From IMG/VR virus record IMGVR_UViG_3300022602_000126, positions 1 through 54,893 of that record: a stretch of DNA of 54,893 nt, one strand, 5' to 3'. Source of the DNA: a virus (Duplodnaviria; Caudoviricetes). Below the pieces are notes generated by a model, which did no database searches, had not been told where the DNA came from, and worked only from the letters and a program-made list of their open reading frames with translations. Positions 3,194 through 41,361 of this stretch are shown one piece after another. The translations under genes were made by a program, and so were the position numbers. The number at the start of each line of letters is the position of its first letter. The first letter of the stretch is position 1.

Positions 3194-3262
3194 ATAAATA
3201 ATATTGTCAGCCACGATGCTACTAACATCTGCTGACTCTATGATTGTAAAGGAATCACAGCA
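3194..3262 (+). promoter_or_regulatory. Endonuclease leader cassette copy B
   Basis: ATAAATAATATT-GTCAGC-CAC-GATG CTACTAA CATC-T-GCTGAC-TCTA-TGATT GTAAAGG AATCA-CAGCA-GTG. Confidence 0.85.
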
Positions 3263-20600: not shown

Positions 20601-21542
20601 AAATAAAGTATTGCCAACAACATAAGGATAAACTGGCGCACCAGTATTATCAACCGTGCAGAAATAAGCATAAGTTCCAGTTGGATAATCTGGAGTAACG
20701 CAATAACGACCATTGTGGGTATCTAAATCTCCACCACCGACAAATTGATAATCTTCAATAAACATACCCATTGGATATGTTGTTAAATCATGCGCAGTAG
20801 TGGCAGCACGATAACTTGGAGATTTTAATCCATAGCCAGTAGCCATATTCTTAACGCCACTGGTATTATCTAACGGATTTACATATCCATTTGGTCCATA
20901 AATTGGAAATCCATCTAGACTAAAGCCAAGAATCTTACTATGTCCATCAGGATGAAATAAACTTCCATTCAAATATGAAATAACATTAACTTCTGGCAAA
21001 CCATGAACAGTGCTGCTATATGGACGACCGCCTAAGCCACTTAACCAAATTGGAGCAAAGCTATAATCATTATAAAAATATTGTCCACTAGGAGTTGAAC
21101 GACCGCCTGCAAGGTCTTGTTTATACCAGTGTTGACCATTGTCAATTTGTCCTTGACGAATACCGTTTGCATAAGTTTGATCAAAATGAAATCCAAATGG
21201 AGTAGTAAATCCAAATGGCGGAGCAGTATCAATTGCTGCTGGATAAATTGCAACGCCATTTAACCAAAAACCAACCAACTGTTGTCCAGTTGTCATAGGA
21301 TTGGCGGTTAAATTTTGTCCACTATTGTCAACCCAGCTACGATTATAATATTCGGCTAGAATAGCAGTGCTTTCATATATGCTGCCATATCCATGATAAG
21401 GAATACCAGTAGCAGTAAAATTTACAGTATTGGCAATTTCATTGTTGATTGGAACATTTGTCAAAAATGTCCAATTATCACTCACGTTTATTAAACGACC
21501 AAGTTGAAGGTTGGTGGCTAAACCATTAAACGACGATGCCAT
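17634..21542 (-). CDS. large virion protein with N-terminal YHYH-type domain and repeated putative Ig-like domains
   Basis: HSKILGFSLDGFPIYGP, DLD..NGR..VTPDYP.GTYAYF; repeats of L.SG.LP.GL.L...G.I.G. Confidence 0.7.
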   Translation of the reverse strand: MASSFNGLATNLQLGRLINVSDNWTFLTNVPINNEIANTVNFTATGIPYHGYGSIYESTAILAEYYNRSWVDNSGQNLTANPMTTGQQLVGFWLNGVAIYPAAIDTAPPFGFTTPFGFHFDQTYANGIRQGQIDNGQHWYKQDLAGGRSTPSGQYFYNDYSFAPIWLSGLGGRPYSSTVHGLPEVNVISYLNGSLFHPDGHSKILGFSLDGFPIYGPNGYVNPLDNTSGVKNMATGYGLKSPSYRAATTAHDLTTYPMGMFIEDYQFVGGGDLDTHNGRYCVTPDYPTGTYAYFCTVDNTGAPVYPYVVGNTLFQQIDVLTEESAQGYATGYPEWITPTGNLGKVQALQFFELGLQAVDPTGQPDGKDVNYKLISGKLPAGLQIDSSGQVTGNPKDTYSIDGVPEAVTQDRTSTFTVRAISASGKITDRSFTITVTGNYPPQLLTSNYTALGEFVDGIVINIPISAIDLNSDKLTFSLLSGNLPLGTSLSADGVISGPLIPNYVPPSGWDIDASPWDATPWDQSDLNLPIGQSFNNISKVTYYFAIEVSDGKSFDIRNYSIVVFNHEAISADNTLLTDDDTNISSDTSNYRQPILLTDSLGDYATFTSGNFYAFKFEGIDYDNIAVSYNITATSGTGWDAGPPVDNDTAAFELAQGNPNTVNPALVDTVPWDSGFWDKSDFAFPPGLSLDSTTGWLTGYIPPQSAISQTYTFAVQVASTSDSSIVSPYKVFSITILGATSLDVNWITPSSLGSINAGEVSQLTLQATAKSGRQLYYSLVSGSRIPQGLTLLSDGSISGRVSFQQFSLDQGTTTFDVTNSLIGTTTAPTTIDRTYKMIVDAYDYSQTIGSQQTFTLTVNNVTYTPYDNLYLVCLPSVAKRTIIDFLLTDTDYFDYNDIYRPNDPYWGIQKDIKILVGYGLTPSQASDYIAAMQRRHYNKRFYFGDYHYATATDSNGNALYDVIYVDLFEDTKTYSLVNGKLTGAVPSNSFLIKSGESLYPNDLNLMINDIDIAIGETDSNTLPQWLTSIQPDGNILGFNTFAVLAYLKAGTGERVLFNLRNTPKQDIKLIPFVSDRYIFDNNMDINFDLNTGKFITKSYTTFDTGYVLSITPSASVAYAIDIPFDQVNGHTITQINAIGGLDGDNSGDWDGKTIVFSTQENYNVGLFPNEYNQGWNLNGAIVPGYAEVQNGSATVNERGGVWTINITDNTVYLTFTQQIFINQVVQVQFGAKSGETLQYNSSHVGISNQTVPKYEQINIQTIQLKAPTTFDSHQTQFINNEDQYQLPFASDSYLKFPRTTILG

Positions 21543-26905: not shown

Positions 26906-27343
26906 TCAATAATTATTTTGACGATTTCTTACTGCAATGCTTAATTGGTCTGCGGGTATACCGTTCATTCTATACCCATCATACACATGTTTTAGATATT
27001 TGTGAGATGGTGATCTGTTTATATCGCCTCTGCTCTTGATCATTACATAAGTTAAGGATTTATATAATTCGCCTTTGTATAGCACTTCAATGAAAGCATG
27101 ACTATAATCTTTGCCATCACCTTCATACCAATCTAATATTTTTAATGAATCCATATCAACAGCCCACAACACCCCATAGGTTTTTGCGCCATCTTTTTGA
27201 ACGATATTAGTATAATGATTTATTTCTAGCTGTTGGTTTGGTGCAACAGCAACACCAATGCGTTTTGCGTTTGGAATACGGTTTTTTAATTCGGGTATAT
27301 TAGTATTATGCCCATATGAAAAATATAAAATGCTGCCAGCCAT
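26906..27343 (-). CDS. gamma-glutamylcyclotransferase (AIG2-like) protein
   Basis: YFSYG.N, GVLW, LD.YEG, PS..Y motifs. Confidence 0.8.
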   Translation of the reverse strand: MAGSILYFSYGHNTNIPELKNRIPNAKRIGVAVAPNQQLEINHYTNIVQKDGAKTYGVLWAVDMDSLKILDWYEGDGKDYSHAFIEVLYKGELYKSLTYVMIKSRGDINRSPSHKYLKHVYDGYRMNGIPADQLSIAVRNRQNNY

Positions 27344-27358
27344 AGAAATATTTATAAT

Positions 27359-27384
27359 AAAAAAGGGGAAGCCGAAACTTCCCC
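27359..27384 (-). terminator. Rho-independent terminator
   Basis: GGGGAAG-loop-CTTCCCC followed by T6 on minus strand. Confidence 0.8.
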
Positions 27385-27413
27385 TAATCAGTATTCATTC
27401 GCGTGTATAATAT

Positions 27414-28247
27414 TTAGTCGTTGCCTGGATCGCCCTTGCAAAGAGTTTTCTTTGCAGCAGCAACCGCCTTAAAATCTACTGGCCATAAAGCAGGCTTTGC
27501 CTTCTTATCAGCGCCAGCAGGAAGAGGAATAGTCAAACCGCTTGCAGCTTCAACATCAGCCACACTAACCTGAACCTTAGTTAGGTCATTGCCCTGATTC
27601 TCAGCCTGTGGGAATAGGAACGCATAAACTTCCTTAGTCTGGGTATCAACTACAATCTTCCACATCTTGTTTGGAACTGTTACCTTGTTAGCACCGATTG
27701 TCTTATCGGTTCCAACCTTGTAGATGTTGCCAGCATAGATGAGAAGTGTATGATTGCGTGAGAATGTCCATGCACCCGTTGAACCTTCAAGCAACTTCCA
27801 GATACCACGATTAAGACCTGGCAACTGTGGTGACATGTTACTCATTAGGAATGATTCATATTCAACTTGCTGATCCCATGACTGATGAGCATCATTGGCG
27901 ATATGTCCCTGATCATAGCCACTAGCAGCATAATCGCTTGGAGCACTACGCTTATCAGCAGGTAGCGCATTGTCGGCAACGAACGCATTAGAACGGGCTA
28001 CGCAGCCATTAACATGCTGTGGAGTGATTTCCCATGCTGCCCATAGTGGTTCCTTGGCAGCATTGTCATGCTGAACATAATAACCCTGACGGCAAAGTGG
28101 GGTAGTATCGTGTTTGGCAGTATCAGTAATCTTGCCATAAGGCATAAACGCAGCACAGACAGCATCTGGCTGATTTGGACGCTGATTCCAAGCATAAGCA
28201 AGAGTTGGAACCATAAGTGCGAGTAGTACTAGTAAAATCTTTTTCAT
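27414..28247 (-). CDS. exported DNA/RNA non-specific endonuclease (NucA/Serratia family)
   Basis: Signal peptide MKKILLVLLA..AYA, YDQGH (DRGH variant), SNMSPQ..LNRGIWK.LE, VP...WK. Confidence 0.85.
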   Translation of the reverse strand: MKKILLVLLALMVPTLAYAWNQRPNQPDAVCAAFMPYGKITDTAKHDTTPLCRQGYYVQHDNAAKEPLWAAWEITPQHVNGCVARSNAFVADNALPADKRSAPSDYAASGYDQGHIANDAHQSWDQQVEYESFLMSNMSPQLPGLNRGIWKLLEGSTGAWTFSRNHTLLIYAGNIYKVGTDKTIGANKVTVPNKMWKIVVDTQTKEVYAFLFPQAENQGNDLTKVQVSVADVEAASGLTIPLPAGADKKAKPALWPVDFKAVAAAKKTLCKGDPGND

Positions 28248-28284
28248 TGAAGTTTCCTTGGTTAGGTAAGGATATTTAGGCAAT

Positions 28285-28316
28285 AAAAAAGCACCAGAGA
28301 AATAAATCTCTGGTGC
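28285..28316 (-). terminator. Rho-independent terminator
   Basis: GCACCAGAG-ATTTATTT-CTCTGGTGC-TTTTTT on minus strand. Confidence 0.85.
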
Positions 28317-28502
28317 CCGATTTATATTTCATTTATATTATTATTGTTTAGTTTTCTTTTACTCTACTATCATGCTAGTTATTTTTACATTTATTATTTT
28401 TAATTTATAAGCTAGTTATTTTCTTAAGTTAGTTTTCAAAGTTAGTTTTTACTACTGTTTATTTTCTACGCTAGTTATAGGTGCTAATCATAATCGCCCT
28501 AC
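28285..28502 (-). ncRNA. candidate A-rich small RNA with repeated AACUA(G/A)C motifs
   Basis: No long ORF; TAAATA box at 28513-28508, 5' hairpin, 5 motif copies, intrinsic terminator. Confidence 0.55.
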
Positions 28503-28517
28503 ATTCTTATTTATCAC

Positions 28518-28715
28518 TTAACATTTGATGCCAATTTTATCTAGCATGGCAACCGCATCATCTACCTTGCCATTCTCAACTTCAAATTCAAGCATATCAA
28601 GATAAATCATCATCATGTCGCTTTCATCAAGTTCATCCATCCACGCATACCCATCATTGTGAGTAAGTGGCTGTGTCCAACTGAACTTTAATGTAGGAAA
28701 CTTTTTCTTATTCAT
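28518..28715 (-). CDS. hypothetical protein
   Basis: Small coupled ORF. Confidence 0.6.
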   Translation of the reverse strand: MNKKKFPTLKFSWTQPLTHNDGYAWMDELDESDMMMIYLDMLEFEVENGKVDDAVAMLDKIGIKC

Positions 28716-28936
28716 CACCAAGCCTCATAATCAGTTACATCAATTCTTGCTATTTCTTCGTTCTTTTCATCAAGCGCAATAGCATCAACATGCTGTCCAA
28801 TACCATTGCCACTTGAAACAACGATCTTTACACTAGTGGCGAGCATCATTAAATCGCTGTCTAACCACTCTTTTATGCGAGTGATTTCCGCAGGAAATAA
28901 GTGAACGCCACTAGATTTAGCTTTTCTTTTAGTCAT
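28715..28936 (-). CDS. hypothetical protein
   Basis: MTKRKAK...DVTDYEAW; start overlaps previous stop. Confidence 0.65.
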   Translation of the reverse strand: MTKRKAKSSGVHLFPAEITRIKEWLDSDLMMLATSVKIVVSSGNGIGQHVDAIALDEKNEEIARIDVTDYEAW

Positions 28937-29126
28937 TACGAGGAAGTTGAGTCGCTTCTTTAACCAATTCAATAAGTTCATCAACTGAACTAACAATGAT
29001 CTTTGCGGTCTTCCATTCATCTTCATGATCACGACCACTAACTTCAATCATATAACCATTGTCATACATATTGATAGTAAATGCTTCGTTTACCTTCGTT
29101 AATTTAAAATTAATCTTAGCCGCCAT
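28929..29126 (-). CDS. hypothetical protein
   Basis: AAGGAG RBS, 65 aa. Confidence 0.75.
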   Translation of the reverse strand: MAAKINFKLTKVNEAFTINMYDNGYMIEVSGRDHEDEWKTAKIIVSSVDELIELVKEATQLPRND

Positions 29127-29145
29127 TTGTTTTCTCCTTTGTTAA

Positions 29146-29472
29146 TCACTGAAACGCACACCAAAGTGGCCCGCCGCTCTTGTGCCCATCTGTAAATTGT
29201 GTTTCGCCAAATGCTTCTTTTGTTTTAACGTTCATCATCATCTTAAATCGATTACCATTATCGGCAACTTCAACGATGACTAGCCAAGGGTTTTCAAAAT
29301 TTGAAATAGCACTGCGGAAACCTTTATTTTCCCACTGGATCATAGTTGTTCCGCCACTGCCCACAACAGTAAAGTGTTCACCACTTTGAAAATAACAGGT
29401 AAGAGTAGCAGGATTATCTGCCAATACTGGTGTAGCAAACAGCAGCGATGCTGCTAGTAAAATCTTTTTCAT
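29146..29472 (-). CDS. exported hypothetical protein
   Basis: Signal peptide MKKILLAASLLFATPVLA. Confidence 0.7.
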   Translation of the reverse strand: MKKILLAASLLFATPVLADNPATLTCYFQSGEHFTVVGSGGTTMIQWENKGFRSAISNFENPWLVIVEVADNGNRFKMMMNVKTKEAFGETQFTDGHKSGGPLWCAFQ

Positions 29473-29473
29473 T

Positions 29474-29722
29474 TTAGTTTACTTTCTTACAAATTTGTTT
29501 TCCATCTGCGCCCATACGAGGAGTGAGCGAGTAGCGATACAGATACTGACAGCCTGTTAAGTGGTCAGTATAAACATCCATGTGGCTGTTCTCATGCGGA
29601 CCATCGCTATCATCCTTTGCTTCATATGGCAATGATGCCTGATAAATTGTTAGCCCAAAGATTGAGGCACAACACAACATATAAAAAGCCCACCAAGACC
29701 ACCACTTAAAATACTTTTTCAT
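29474..29722 (-). CDS. membrane-anchored hypothetical protein
   Basis: TM helix then TD..TGCQYL...TPR....G.Q.C motif. Confidence 0.7.
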   Translation of the reverse strand: MKKYFKWWSWWAFYMLCCASIFGLTIYQASLPYEAKDDSDGPHENSHMDVYTDHLTGCQYLYRYSLTPRMGADGKQICKKVN

Positions 29723-29930
29723 CTTCTTTCTTTCTATCAAAAAGGTGCAAACCCATATACATTACAACAGCGCCAGCCAACAATCCCATTACATATGTAA
29801 ACAGCATAACACTGATTGCATATAAAAGCAAGAAAAATAAATTGGTGAACGCACAAATAATTATGGTGCCAAGCGGCCACAATAGCGGCGGCGCATCACG
29901 CTCACATAATTCTTTTGCCCAACGCAGCAT
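29706..29930 (-). CDS. hypothetical membrane protein
   Basis: Hydrophobic coupled ORF. Confidence 0.55.
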   Translation of the reverse strand: MLRWAKELCERDAPPLLWPLGTIIICAFTNLFFLLLYAISVMLFTYVMGLLAGAVVMYMGLHLFDRKKEDEKVF

Positions 29931-30289
29931 TATGCCACGCTCCAATCATAATCATCAATGGTCATCACGCTTTCAAGCCCATCATATTCATCAATACGAT
30001 ACTGCGTACCAGGTTCCAATTCACGGATAGCCAAGCGAGCAAATTCACCGTTTGCCGCCTCGCCTAATTCTTCTACAACCTGCACAAGTAGCGGATCAGT
30101 GCGTTCAATATCACGACTAGAAAAATAATGGTCATCGTCTTCAATGCCATCCTTATAATAGTGACTATCCCATCTATGATCGCCCTCAACATACAGAATG
30201 TTAAGATTGGCAAGTTCGCCATACCGCATGGTAGCCTCATGGCTCAATCCAAATCCACCGTGACACGCATTATATACAATTTTGGTCAT
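29930..30289 (-). CDS. conserved phage hypothetical protein
   Basis: KIVYN.C.GGFGLS...R.DP.LVQVVEELG...YDG.E pattern. Confidence 0.8.
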   Translation of the reverse strand: MTKIVYNACHGGFGLSHEATMRYGELANLNILYVEGDHRWDSHYYKDGIEDDDHYFSSRDIERTDPLLVQVVEELGEAANGEFARLAIRELEPGTQYRIDEYDGLESVMTIDDYDWSVA

Positions 30290-40576: not shown

Positions 40577-41361
40577 TCGGTGACCTTTGGATATATTAAA
40601 TCTAACCAATCACTATGCGCCTCTTGAACAGGATGATTTCCGCATTGAGGATAATCTTTTGCCCAAGTATGAAATCCATTATCTTTATGCCAATTATTCC
40701 AATTAATATTTTGCCATATCCCATTAGATAAAACTTCGGGCGGTTGTTTATCATATAATTCATGCGTGGCACAACAAAAGAAATATGGAATATTTTTACT
40801 TTCTAACAATAACTGCAACAATAATATTTCTTTGGCAGTATTAATATGATGACTTATTGAATCGCCTGTTATTTTATAATATTGATCCGCAGCACTTGTT
40901 ATTCCAATTTCAGTTAGTTTATCATGTTGATCACTGAAAAATTTATGTTGGTTATCATCTATGCCATTTGGAAAAAATGAAAGTTTTTCTTCTAATGATA
41001 ATCCATGCCATGCATTAAAATTGATATAATAATCATCTATACCAAACTGTGCTTCTAATGATTTGTCATGCACGATAGTATTATAAGGATGCATATTGCG
41101 CAATCTTATTTCACTGCGATGAGTATATGTCCACATAACTGCTACATATAATTCTTTATTTTGATTTTGATTAATAGCATCTATAACACGACGAGCGATT
41201 GAATTATTAGCGCATCCTGGTTTTGCAACACAAAGATATTCATAGTTTAGTTGTTTAGCTAATAAAGCAGACCATGTAAATTGACTAGGCGATGTTAATG
41301 TTTCATCGCCTAGTTCACTGCCCCAAGTAAAACTATCGCCACCTGCGATTAGTAATGGCAT
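40561..41361 (-). CDS. SGNH/GDSL-like hydrolase-fold protein
   Basis: GDSFTWG, PG..N..I.R, WT...R.E, NHP...AH. Confidence 0.7.
   Translation of the reverse strand: MPLLIAGGDSFTWGSELGDETLTSPSQFTWSALLAKQLNYEYLCVAKPGCANNSIARRVIDAINQNQNKELYVAVMWTYTHRSEIRLRNMHPYNTIVHDKSLEAQFGIDDYYINFNAWHGLSLEEKLSFFPNGIDDNQHKFFSDQHDKLTEIGITSAADQYYKITGDSISHHINTAKEILLLQLLLESKNIPYFFCCATHELYDKQPPEVLSNGIWQNINWNNWHKDNGFHTWAKDYPQCGNHPVQEAHSDWLDLIYPKVTECFQK

What the first reader, a model, noticed from the sequence alone, without database searches (positions are those of the whole stretch)
28285..28513. Candidate ~218-nt A-rich small RNA with repeated AACUA(G/A)C motifs (possible sponge/decoy)
Seen on the minus strand: TAAATA-N5-G start, a 5' hairpin (GTAGG...CCTAT, opening like the endonuclease leader), then ~160 nt of very A-rich, low-structure sequence. 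It contains ATAACTAGC x3 (28374-82, 28411-19, 28470-78) and AAAACTAACTT x2 (28426-36, 28439-49), and ends in a GC hairpin plus U6 terminator. It is the longest stretch without a recognisable gene I found in this dense window; only 1-18-codon minigenes are present (e.g. MISTYN*, MIVE*). Inference: a late ncRNA with protected ends and multiple single-stranded binding sites, as in CsrB/RsmZ-type sponges, an Hfq decoy, or a decoy for a sequence-specific anti-phage RNase. An iteron-like replication origin is the alternative.
Basis: partly seen in the sequence, partly recalled or inferred. Interest (0 to 1): 0.75.

Follow-up and report, generated by a model that had tools for sequence, protein, structure and literature searches.

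The report
Candidate phage small RNA with repeated motif
An uncultivated giant phage carries a conserved gene-free stretch of about 220 bases, bounded by a promoter-like signal and a terminator, that probably makes a small A-rich RNA with several copies of one short motif, though its expression and its partner are not shown.

Summary
Every motif coordinate, the 5' hairpin, the terminator and the lack of any ORF of 20 aa or more are as described.

The stretch is a discrete module found once per contig in one clade of uncultivated T4-like jumbo phages. There are 16 distinct variants of 186-229 nt.
- Gene insertions in relatives fall just outside it. Its 5' edge is always TAAATAA and its 3' edge is always the terminator.
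- TAAATA behaves as a real promoter signal: 49% of its copies lie in the 6% of a complete 338-kb relative that is intergenic.
- The terminator stem shows compensatory changes.
- The 8-mers UAACUAGC/AAACUAAC are islands of conservation: 0.91 against 0.64 for the rest of the body, with 0 of 5000 permutations reaching that.
- The motif is nearly unique to this locus genome-wide.
- There is no GC-skew turn at the locus.

My best reading is a T4-late-type non-coding RNA that acts as a multi-site binding platform for an unknown partner. It is not a CsrB/RsmZ, CrcZ or ToxI relative. No RNA data could be obtained, so both expression and mechanism are inferred.

The parts
28507..28513 (-). TAAATAA, a T4-late-like promoter element that forms the invariant 5' edge of the module
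   Evidence: It is invariant in all 16 variants. It stands in three different relations to the upstream stop codon, or follows a different upstream gene. In the window, 24 of 49 TAAATA copies lie in the 11.5% non-coding sequence. In complete relative G001, 95 of 193 copies are intergenic.
28476..28503 (-). 5' stem-loop (UGUAGGGC...GCACCUAUA) at the predicted 5' end of the RNA
   Evidence: It folds at -8 kcal/mol in the window and -9 to -13 kcal/mol in relatives. The consensus has 10 pairs, with an invariant outer stem and a varying inner stem, and 1 pair changed on both sides. It shares its design with the leaders of five NUMOD3 endonuclease genes.
28470..28477 (-). Motif copy 1, UAACUAGC
   Evidence: column conservation 0.9-1.0
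28445..28458 (-). Conserved tract ACAGUAGUAAAAAC, which runs into motif copy 2 and forms an (ARN)4-5 run
   Evidence: Column conservation is 0.9-1.0 in the 16 variants. The ARN run is present in all 16 variants but is not above shuffles.
28441..28448 (-). Motif copy 2, AAACUAAC
28428..28435 (-). Motif copy 3, AAACUAAC
   Evidence: Located. The 13-nt tandem unit (28414-28449, 2.7 copies) is present in a variable number of copies among relatives.
28411..28418 (-). Motif copy 4, UAACUAGC
28374..28381 (-). Motif copy 5, UAACUAGC, an island of conservation among variable flanks
   Evidence: Motif columns score 0.9-1.0 while the flanks score 0.1-0.5.
28346..28356 (-). Degenerate motif copy 6, GAAAACUAAAC
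   Evidence: (repeat family D4)
28285..28318 (-). Intrinsic terminator (12-bp stem, 6-nt loop, U6) that forms the 3' edge of the module
   Evidence: Found. In 17 sequences, 9 of the 12 pairs keep pairing through changes on both sides. In L006 a 199-aa gene is inserted directly after it.
28273..28278 (-). Separate TAAATA promoter-like element of the downstream nuclease gene (context, not part of the RNA)
   Evidence: It is kept in L015, where the sequence further upstream is unrelated.
27414..28247 (-). Downstream gene for a DNA/RNA non-specific endonuclease with a signal-peptide-like N terminus (context)
   Evidence: Pfam PF01223, E 2.5e-41. It has its own terminator at 27385-27364.
28518..28715 (-). 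Upstream 65-aa acidic protein of unknown family (context). No terminator lies between it and the element.
   Evidence: (no family match)

Best explanation
The stretch is a self-contained non-coding RNA gene of a T4-like jumbo phage.

Proposed mechanism:
- Transcription starts a few bases after a T4-late-type TAAATAA element, near 28502.
- The RNA opens with a protective 5' stem-loop.
- It continues through about 150 nt of A-rich, C-poor, weakly structured sequence and ends at a strong intrinsic terminator. The RNA would be about 218 nt in the window and about 175-218 nt in relatives.
- The body carries 4-6 co-oriented copies of an 8-mer, UAACUAGC or AAACUAAC.
- I propose these copies act as multiple binding sites for one trans-acting partner, most likely a sequence-specific RNA-binding protein or ribonuclease of the host. 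The abundant late RNA would then titrate that partner, as a sponge or decoy.

Shown: the module boundaries, the genome-wide behaviour of the promoter-like signal, terminator covariation, motif-level conservation, single-copy status and the lack of coding capacity.

Inferred: that the RNA is made, its exact ends, its late timing, and the whole binding mechanism.
For: 1. Boundaries. The 5' edge is always TAAATAA although the upstream context differs. In the window the stop codon lies 6 nt before it. In L007 and L013 the stop lies inside it. In L001 and L002 an extra 72-aa gene precedes it. The 3' edge is the terminator, and L006 has a 199-aa gene inserted right after it.
2. Promoter signal. TAAATA is depleted in genes and concentrated between them. 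In complete relative G001, 95 of 193 copies are intergenic, against 11-16% for four hexamers of the same composition. In the window the figure is 24 of 49. The signal precedes a baseplate-like structural gene and the large gene upstream of it (starts at 21542 and 23812), the nuclease gene and five endonuclease genes.
3. Hairpin. The same promoter-plus-hairpin head precedes five NUMOD3 endonuclease genes. There the hairpin keeps 6 of 9 pairs through changes on both sides.
4. Terminator. It has 12 pairs, 9 of them with compensatory change, across 17 sequences.
5. Motif conservation. Motif columns score 0.909 and other body columns 0.637, and 0 of 5000 random placements reach the motif value.
6. 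Divergence. At greater distance the element is more conserved than 4-fold sites of the neighbouring gene: L010 0.72 against 0.53, L011 0.80 against 0.60.
7. Strand asymmetry. All copies lie on the transcribed strand. The body outside the motifs is 54% A, 28% T and 6% C in all 16 variants. That suits an unstructured, Rho-evading untranslated RNA; the Rho point is inference.
8. Copy number. The element occurs once per contig. TAACTAGC occurs only 3 times in the 338-kb genome, 2 of them here.
9. Coding. There is no ORF of 20 aa or more, and the mini-ORF frames are not conserved.
Against: - There is no expression evidence of any kind.
- Among close relatives the element as a whole diverges about as fast as 4-fold degenerate sites: 0.75-0.80 against 0.72-0.76. 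The 3' half is full of indels.
- The motifs are not predicted to be more exposed than their surroundings, at 0.56 against 0.62 unpaired.
- Overall folding is not unusual: z = -1.59, with 12 of 200 shuffles folding at least as well.
- A motif-blind repeat test on the window alone gives 112 of 2000.
- The 16 variants are closely related, and the aligner tends to anchor on repeated words. The conservation contrast is therefore somewhat inflated.
- No upstream terminator isolates the element, so it would also be the 3' UTR of read-through transcripts.
- In L008 the 5' hairpin is followed by U6 and only two motif copies remain.
- No partner is identified. The complete relative encodes no Hfq or CsrA.
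- DNA-level binding sites would show the same motif conservation.
Confidence: 0.4

Rival explanations
1. The element is a base-pairing RNA. The repeated 8-mers would be redundant seeds that pair with a GYUAGUU(A/U) sequence in a host sRNA, mRNA or stable RNA. The RNA would act either as an RNA sponge or as a multi-seed regulator.
For: The promoter, terminator and conservation evidence is the same as for the best explanation. The only variable core position is A/G, which would keep pairing with a U through A-U or G-U; that is inference. The terminator with a U tail and the conserved ARN tract fit the Hfq-dependent sRNA design, as I recall that design.
Against: There is no complementary 8-mer target in a phage transcript. 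In the complete relative, all 3 TAACTAGC copies lie on one strand. In the window the complement of the 7-mer core occurs once, inside a structural gene, which is the chance level. Seeds of 7-8 nt rich in A and U give weak duplexes. The host is unknown, so host targets cannot be searched. An 11-nt complementarity to the 3' end of the upstream gene (I3) is not kept in L007 or L013.
Confidence: 0.15
2. The element is a DNA-level array. The co-oriented 8-9-bp repeats in an AT-rich segment would be binding sites for a DNA-binding protein, as in an iteron-type or R-loop-type replication origin, a centromere-like site or an operator array.
For: The element has direct repeats, partly tandem with a 13-bp period. 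GC is 24-28%. Motif conservation is strong. Copy number varies as it does in iteron arrays. T4 origins pair a promoter with a downstream AT-rich unwinding element (recalled knowledge).
Against: - In the complete 338-kb relative, cumulative GC skew falls steadily from about 205 kb to about 295 kb across the locus at 274.4 kb. The turns lie near 80, 105, 165, 205, 295, 305 and 335 kb. This is weak evidence, because skew in such phages follows transcription direction.
- In the window, 5-copy spacing is 29, 13, 17 and 37 nt, which shows no helical phasing.
- The motif is shorter than typical iterons (recalled).
- The edges of the module coincide with a promoter-like signal and a terminator, which a DNA site has no need for.
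- The spacers keep an A-over-T strand bias.
- The locus lies 64 kb from the nearest genome end, so a terminal or packaging role is unlikely.
- A late-type promoter fits poorly with T4-style origin firing early in infection (inference).
Confidence: 0.15
3. The element is a cis-acting spacer or 3' UTR. It would end the upstream operon and insulate it from the separately promoted nuclease gene. Its repeats would be products of replication slippage with no function in trans.
For: No terminator separates the upstream gene from the element. Divergence is near neutral among close relatives and indels are frequent in the 3' half. Whole blocks are lost in L009, L151, L007 and L004, and L008 keeps a reduced version. 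The element is confined to one narrow clade. None of 61 more distant nuclease loci has a comparable intergenic region; the longest is 161 nt.
Against: A spacer needs no conserved promoter-like head, 5' hairpin or 8-mer islands. The motif survives where its flanks have diverged, including in the deepest relative L010. The 5' half is 0.81-0.95 identical at all distances.
Confidence: 0.15
4. The element is the remnant of a homing-endonuclease cassette. The shared promoter-hairpin head would be left over after the ORF decayed.
For: The head, TAAATAA-N3-TGTAGG...CCTA, is shared with five NUMOD3 endonuclease genes in the window.
Against: A blastx of the element against the five endonucleases finds nothing; the best E-value is 1.1 over 11 residues. 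The element lies in the same orientation as its neighbours, whereas the five intact cassettes are antisense to theirs. It is kept at one site in all relatives, including G001, where only one other hairpin-type head was found. The motif islands are conserved.
Confidence: 0.05

Closest known systems
Protein-sponge sRNAs of bacteria (CsrB/CsrC, RsmY/RsmZ; CrcZ/CrcY)
   Same: The RNA would be untranslated and a few hundred nt long. It carries several copies of one short motif, ends in an intrinsic terminator, and varies in copy number among relatives.
   Different: The motif is UAACUAGC/AAACUAAC, not GGA in loops and not AAnAAnAA (the definitions of those motifs are recalled). There is no Rfam match at E up to 10. 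The body is nearly unstructured rather than a series of hairpins. The gene sits in a T4-like (presumably virulent) phage behind a late-type promoter. The partner is unknown.
ToxI antitoxin RNA and the pseudo-ToxI decoy of phage PhiTE (PMC3475682, passages read)
   Same: Both are phage-encoded intergenic repetitive non-coding sequences. In both, repeat number changes by slippage. The PhiTE paper shows that expanded pseudo-ToxI repeats suppress the ToxN anti-phage endoribonuclease by mimicry. [quoted passage not shown]
   Different: ToxI units are 36-nt head-to-tail repeats that fold into pseudoknots. Here the only tandem part is 13 nt x 2.7, and the other copies are dispersed. Nothing in Rfam, ToxI-type families included if it holds them, matched at E up to 10.
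ncRNA001-004 of jumbo phage PA5oct (PMC7318152, passages read)
   Same: These are ORF-free regions of 236-619 nt in a large myovirus that uses the host RNA polymerase. They were annotated from RNA-seq, their function is unknown, and two are highly expressed. PA5oct ClpA is 41.7% identical to the window's ClpA-like protein.
   Different: There is no sequence relation; nhmmer finds no hit to ncRNA001 or ncRNA002. Those two RNAs are 28-31% A and have no repeated 8-mer. ncRNA003 and ncRNA004 were not examined.
T4 late transcription units, and T4 origins oriF/oriG (recalled knowledge)
   Same: The TAAATA(A) element resembles the T4 late promoter TATAAATA and sits 10-31 nt before many start codons. 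T4 origins combine a promoter with a downstream AT-rich region.
   Different: T4 origins use middle-mode promoters and no iterated 8-mer (recalled). No homologue of the T4 late sigma factor was looked for here. No skew turn lies at the locus.

Membership tests
CsrB/RsmZ-type CsrA sponges | Many GGA motifs, mostly in hairpin loops (recalled definition) | tested here: not met
   GGA count in the body is 0 in 15 of 16 variants and 1 in the other.
CsrB/RsmZ-type CsrA sponges | Match to the Rfam models of these families | tested here: not met
   An Rfam scan of 27000-30000 at E up to 10 gave 12 weak matches and none to these families. The only match overlapping the element is CyaR at 20.6 bits against a gathering score of 47, E 1.8.
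CrcZ/CrcY Hfq-Crc sponges | Several A-rich AAnAAnAA motifs (recalled definition) | tested here: not met
   Each variant has 0-5 copies, 5 of 16 variants have none, and no variant exceeds its dinucleotide shuffles. No CrcZ hit falls on the element.
Hfq-dependent sRNA (class II design) | Intrinsic terminator with a U tail | tested here: met
   A 12-bp stem plus U6, conserved with compensatory changes.
Hfq-dependent sRNA (class II design) | (ARN)n tract for the distal face of Hfq | tested here: inconclusive
   AGUAGUAAAAAC or a longer run is present in all 16 variants. However, run length and total ARN content are within shuffle expectation.
Hfq-dependent sRNA (class II design) | Binding to Hfq | not testable with these tools
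   The host is unknown. The complete relative encodes no Hfq.
Type III antitoxin RNA (ToxI, pseudo-ToxI) | Head-to-tail repeats of about 34-45 nt (36 nt in ToxI, PMC3475682) | tested here: not met
   TRF finds only periods of 7, 15 and 13 nt with 2-3 copies.
Type III antitoxin RNA (ToxI, pseudo-ToxI) | Sequence likeness to a known antitoxin RNA | tested here: not met
   No Rfam match.
Iteron-type replication origin | Coincidence with a turn of cumulative GC skew | tested here: not met
   There is no turn at 274.4 kb in the complete 338,435-bp relative, and none at 28.4 kb in the window.
Iteron-type replication origin | Regularly phased direct repeats of about 17-22 bp next to an initiator gene (recalled definition) | tested here: not met
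   The conserved core is 8-9 nt. Spacing in the window is 29, 13, 17 and 37 nt. The neighbours are a nuclease and small proteins with no family match.
T4-type late transcription unit | TATAAATA-like element shortly upstream of the start and enriched between genes | tested here: met
   TAAATAA is invariant. Intergenic enrichment is shown.
T4-type late transcription unit | Late-time transcript starting a few nt downstream of the element | not testable with these tools
   No RNA run was listed.

The most novel reading that the evidence does not exclude
A T4-like (presumably virulent) jumbo phage makes, late in infection, an end-protected and otherwise unstructured RNA. Its 4-6 UAACUAGC/AAACUAAC sites would soak up a sequence-specific host RNA-binding protein or anti-phage endoribonuclease. 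That would be an RNA decoy of a specificity and architecture not described before, and its repeat number would evolve by slippage, as in the PhiTE pseudo-ToxI case.
Probability: 0.2. Interest if true: 0.75.

Novelty: new member of a known kind. Interest (0 to 1): 0.45.

Why it matters
Non-coding RNAs of virulent phages are few and mostly of unknown function. The four ncRNAs of jumbo phage PA5oct remain unexplained (PMC7318152, passages read).

This candidate has clean edges, a single conserved 8-mer that is almost unique to the locus in a 338-kb genome, and natural variation in repeat number. That gives a precise reagent for a pull-down, namely the 8-mer and its mutant. If the partner proved to be a host defence RNase or a global RNA-binding protein, this would be a new RNA-based counter-defence or takeover device.

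If the RNA is not made, the locus still documents a conserved promoter-hairpin head shared with homing-endonuclease genes. It also marks a hotspot where genes are inserted on either side of a fixed module.

Tried and rejected
- RNA evidence: the look-up of sequencing runs (kind rna, 27400-29100) listed no RNA holder.
- No whole genome is held for the window.
- Known families: an Rfam E-value scan and a gathering-score scan of the whole window, which found only 4 tRNAs, gave nothing for the element.
- Phage database: blastn in distant mode with 401 nt found no match. With 8 kb, only a methyltransferase gene matched.
- PA5oct ncRNA001 and ncRNA002 are unrelated.
- Coding: there is no ORF of 20 aa or more, and blastx against the five endonucleases found nothing.
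- A stop-codon recoding reading was considered and dropped by eye, because TAA stops abound in all frames.
- The motif as a genome-wide signal (promoter box, operator or Chi-like site) is rejected: 7 found against 5.7 expected in the window, and 3 copies in 338 kb against 4 for the reversed control.
- CTAG avoidance is not the explanation: CTAG observed/expected is 1.0, and three other places in the window are equally dense in CTAG.
- Hfq-type and Crc-type motif statistics do not exceed shuffles.
- Motif exposure in predicted ensembles is not higher than in the surroundings.
- A joint alignment of element heads and endonuclease leaders gave no consensus structure because the two sets misalign. 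They were then folded separately.
- A more distant analogue upstream of the nuclease gene was sought in 61 loci and not found.
- The upstream 65-aa protein recovered only the same clade.
- Host hint: the genome-contig scan with the nuclease gave one 46%-identical locus in a Gammaproteobacteria single-cell assembly, which is too weak to name a host.
- Phage-encoded Hfq or CsrA: none in G001.
- Literature: four searches listed nothing that, by title and abstract, describes this motif or a sponge-type RNA in a T4-like or jumbo phage. Two of the listed papers were opened, and only in passages. Supplementary files were not consulted.
Full report
**What is in the sequence**

On the minus strand, between the stop codon of a 65-aa gene (28520-28518) and the start of a nuclease gene (28247), lies a 234-nt stretch. 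It has no ORF of 20 aa or more on either strand.
- TAAATAA at 28513-28507
- a hairpin at 28503-28476
- ATAACTAGC at 28478-70, 28419-11 and 28382-74
- AAAACTAACTT at 28449-39 and 28436-26
- a 12-bp GC-rich hairpin with T6 at 28318-28285

The two motifs share a core, AACTA[AG]C. It has five exact copies and one degenerate copy (28356-28346). Part of the body is a 13-nt tandem array of 2.7 copies.

The predicted RNA folds only at its two ends. The minimum free energy is -33 kcal/mol, z is -1.59, and 12 of 200 shuffles fold at least as well.

**Is it more than chance?**

Taken alone, the window is only suggestive.
- Five copies of the core compare with a mean of 0.15 in 2000 dinucleotide shuffles, but I chose that motif after seeing it.
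- The motif-blind statistic, any 9-mer present three times, is reached in 112 of 2000 shuffles.
- AACTAGC is not enriched window-wide: 7 found against 5.7 expected.

The case rests on comparison with relatives.

**Which phage this is**

No DNA relative exists in the phage record collection. The window encodes:
- a ClpA-like ATPase, whose best tblastn hits are 44.5% to an Acinetobacter phage, 41.7% to PA5oct and 39.3% to RaK2
- a T4-type clamp loader, a baseplate-wedge-like structural protein and DNA methyltransferases
- five tRNAs

The nuclease gene retrieved 155 relatives in the viral contig collection, of which 80 loci were kept. One of them, L010, belongs to a 338,435-bp record with direct terminal repeats, rated 100% complete. 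The window therefore comes from an uncultivated T4-like jumbo phage lineage.

**The element is a conserved, single-copy module with fixed edges**

- BLAST and nhmmer find it once per contig in 13 viral contigs and in further metagenome contigs.
- After removing duplicates there are 16 distinct variants of 186-229 nt.
- All belong to the clade whose nuclease is at least 78% identical to the window's.
- None of the 61 more distant nuclease loci I examined has a comparable upstream intergenic region. The longest is 161 nt and is not A-rich.

The edges are informative.
- In the window the upstream stop codon lies 6 nt before TAAATAA.
- In L007 and L013 the stop lies inside TAAATAA.
- In L001 and L002 an additional 72-aa gene sits between the 66-aa gene and the element, and homology begins exactly at TAAATAA.
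- In L006 a 199-aa gene is inserted immediately after the terminator's T-run.

Insertions on both sides leave the promoter-to-terminator unit intact.

**The promoter-like signal is real**

In the window, 24 of 49 TAAATA copies lie in the 11.5% of sequence that my crude gene call leaves non-coding. Many sit 10-31 nt before a start codon. Examples are the baseplate-like structural gene and the large gene upstream of it (starts at 21542 and 23812) and the nuclease gene itself.

In the complete relative, TAAATA occurs only 193 times. Of these, 95 (49%) fall in the 6.3% of the genome that is intergenic. Four hexamers of identical composition occur 547-761 times, with 11-16% intergenic.

This matches the T4 late promoter TATAAATA (recalled knowledge). 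Late timing is an inference from that likeness and from the genes the signal precedes.

**The 5' hairpin**

The head of the element, TAAATAA-N3-TGTAGG...CCTA, has the same design as the leaders of five plus-strand genes, at 3195, 6111, 24466, 34731 and 46066. All five genes carry NUMOD3 motifs of homing endonucleases. Among those five leaders, 6 of 9 hairpin pairs keep pairing through changes on both sides.

In the element itself the outer stem never varies and the inner stem differs between the window, the majority form, L111 and L010. Only one pair is changed on both sides.

In G001 my pattern found only one other hairpin-type head, and it precedes a gene whose leader and first codons match the window's endonuclease genes. 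The element keeps its head there too.

**The terminator**

It is the longest-stemmed terminator-like site within 5 kb. Across 17 sequences, 9 of its 12 pairs show compensatory change.

The nuclease gene that follows has its own TAAATA (28278-28273) and its own terminator (27385-27364). The neighbourhood is therefore a row of short promoter-to-terminator units, and this one lacks an ORF.

**Selection on the motif**

- Across the 16 variants, motif columns have a mean pairwise identity of 0.909 and other body columns 0.637. None of 5000 random placements of five 8-mers reaches the motif value.
- Copy 5 is an island scoring 0.9-1.0 between flanks scoring 0.1-0.5.
- In L010, the deepest relative, four copies, the ACAGUAG tract and the two end structures survive, while the 3' body is unalignable apart from its A-richness.
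- Copy number ranges from 4 to 6. L008 holds a reduced form with two copies.

There are caveats.
- The variants are closely related, and aligners anchor on repeated words.
- Against close relatives, the element as a whole is no more conserved than 4-fold sites of the nuclease gene: 0.75-0.80 against 0.72-0.76.
- It is more conserved at greater distance: 0.72 against 0.53 for L010 and 0.80 against 0.60 for L011. The 5' half stays at 0.81-0.95 throughout.

**RNA or DNA?**

Several points favour an RNA.
- The module's edges coincide with transcription signals.
- All motif copies lie on the transcribed strand.
- The spacers outside the motifs keep 54% A, 28% T and 6% C in every variant. That suits an RNA meant to stay unpaired and, by inference, to escape Rho.

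Two results count against a genome-wide DNA signal or a terminal function.
- TAACTAGC occurs 3 times in 338 kb, 2 of them in the element, against 4 for the reversed control.
- The locus lies 64 kb from the nearer end of the genome.

Cumulative GC skew falls steadily from about 205 kb to about 295 kb across the locus at 274.4 kb. The turns lie near 80, 105, 165, 205, 295, 305 and 335 kb. This is weak evidence, because skew in such genomes tracks gene orientation, but it gives the origin reading no support. Copy spacing in the window (29, 13, 17, 37 nt) shows no helical phasing.

**What kind of RNA?**

It is not a member of any described family.
- No Rfam match reaches a gathering score.
- GGA is absent in 15 of 16 variants.
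- AAnAAnAA is absent in 5 of 16 variants and never exceeds shuffles.
- ARN tracts match composition, although one (ARN)4-5 run is conserved in all variants.
- There are no long tandem units of the ToxI kind.
- The motifs are not predicted to be more exposed than their flanks, at 0.56 against 0.62, partly because CUAG is self-complementary.
- No complementary 8-mer target exists in the transcripts of the complete relative.
- That relative encodes no Hfq or CsrA.

What remains is the architecture: protected ends, a long unstructured A-rich body, and several copies of one conserved 8-mer whose number drifts by slippage. I read that as a multi-site binding platform. I put the RNA gene at about 0.65 and the full sponge/decoy statement at about 0.4. 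The partner is unknown.

**Comparison with what is known**

- The nearest functional analogues are bacterial protein sponges and the PhiTE pseudo-ToxI decoy. In PhiTE, expansion of a repeat lets the phage neutralise an anti-phage RNase (PMC3475682, passages read).
- The nearest analogues by setting are the four unexplained ncRNAs of jumbo phage PA5oct (PMC7318152, passages read). Two of them were compared and are unrelated.
- The four literature searches listed nothing that, by title and abstract, describes this motif or a sponge-type RNA in a T4-like or jumbo phage. Apart from the two papers named, I saw only the listings.

**Verdict**

The reading as a late small RNA is well founded but unproven. 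The sponge/decoy mechanism is a reasonable inference without direct support, and the specific analogies to CsrB/RsmZ, Hfq decoys and ToxI fail their defining tests. The origin alternative is weakened.

I rate it a new member of a known kind, a phage-encoded small RNA candidate, with interest 0.45. It would be worth more if a discrete transcript and a motif-dependent partner were found.

Noticed in passing
window 3195, 6111, 24466, 34731, 46066 (+); partial copy at 99 (-): A conserved promoter-plus-hairpin leader (TAAATAAT-N2-TGTAGGCCACGG...CCTACTCTAT) precedes five plus-strand NUMOD3 homing-endonuclease genes set antisense among minus-strand genes. In the hairpin, 6 of 9 pairs keep pairing through changes on both sides.
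   Followed up: partly
window 6109/6111 and 24464/24466: Sigma-70-like promoters on the minus strand (for example TTGACA-N17-TATATT) sit back to back with the TAAATA-type promoters of the plus-strand endonuclease genes.
   Followed up: no
whole window: CCGG is entirely absent, with 0 found against 35 expected. Several other 4-bp palindromes are strongly depleted, with observed/expected of 0.19 for CGCG, 0.29 for GTAC, 0.29 for GGCC, 0.35 for TCGA, 0.42 for ACGT and 0.45 for AGCT. CTAG is at expectation. This suggests restriction avoidance.
   Followed up: no
window 27414-28247 (-): The DNA/RNA non-specific endonuclease gene has a signal-peptide-like N terminus. It is a one-gene unit with its own TAAATA and its own terminator. 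Its GC content is 0.44-0.50, against about 0.37 for the window, which suggests later acquisition.
   Followed up: partly
L006 3375-3974; L002 3525-3743: Relatives carry extra genes inserted exactly at the two edges of the element: a 199-aa gene after the terminator and a 72-aa gene before TAAATAA. This marks the flanks as insertion hotspots.
   Followed up: partly
L008 3809-3964: This is a reduced variant of the element. Its 5' hairpin is followed by U6, so it looks like a terminator, and only two UAACUAGC copies remain. Its 3' half resembles that of L009, which suggests mosaic exchange.
   Followed up: partly
G001 (record of L010), about 41,240-41,360 (-); L188 about 1240-1360: A second cluster of three AACTA[AG]C copies lies in a non-coding region just upstream of a tRNA gene. 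The region is not A-rich, contains several hairpins and a terminator, and carries one motif copy in the terminator loop. I estimate about 0.02 such clusters by chance in this genome. It has no homologue in the window or in the other loci.
   Followed up: partly
window 28371-28381 and 28538-28548: An 11-nt, 91% complementarity links motif copy 5 to the 3' end of the upstream gene. It is not kept in L007 or L013, so it is probably chance.
   Followed up: yes
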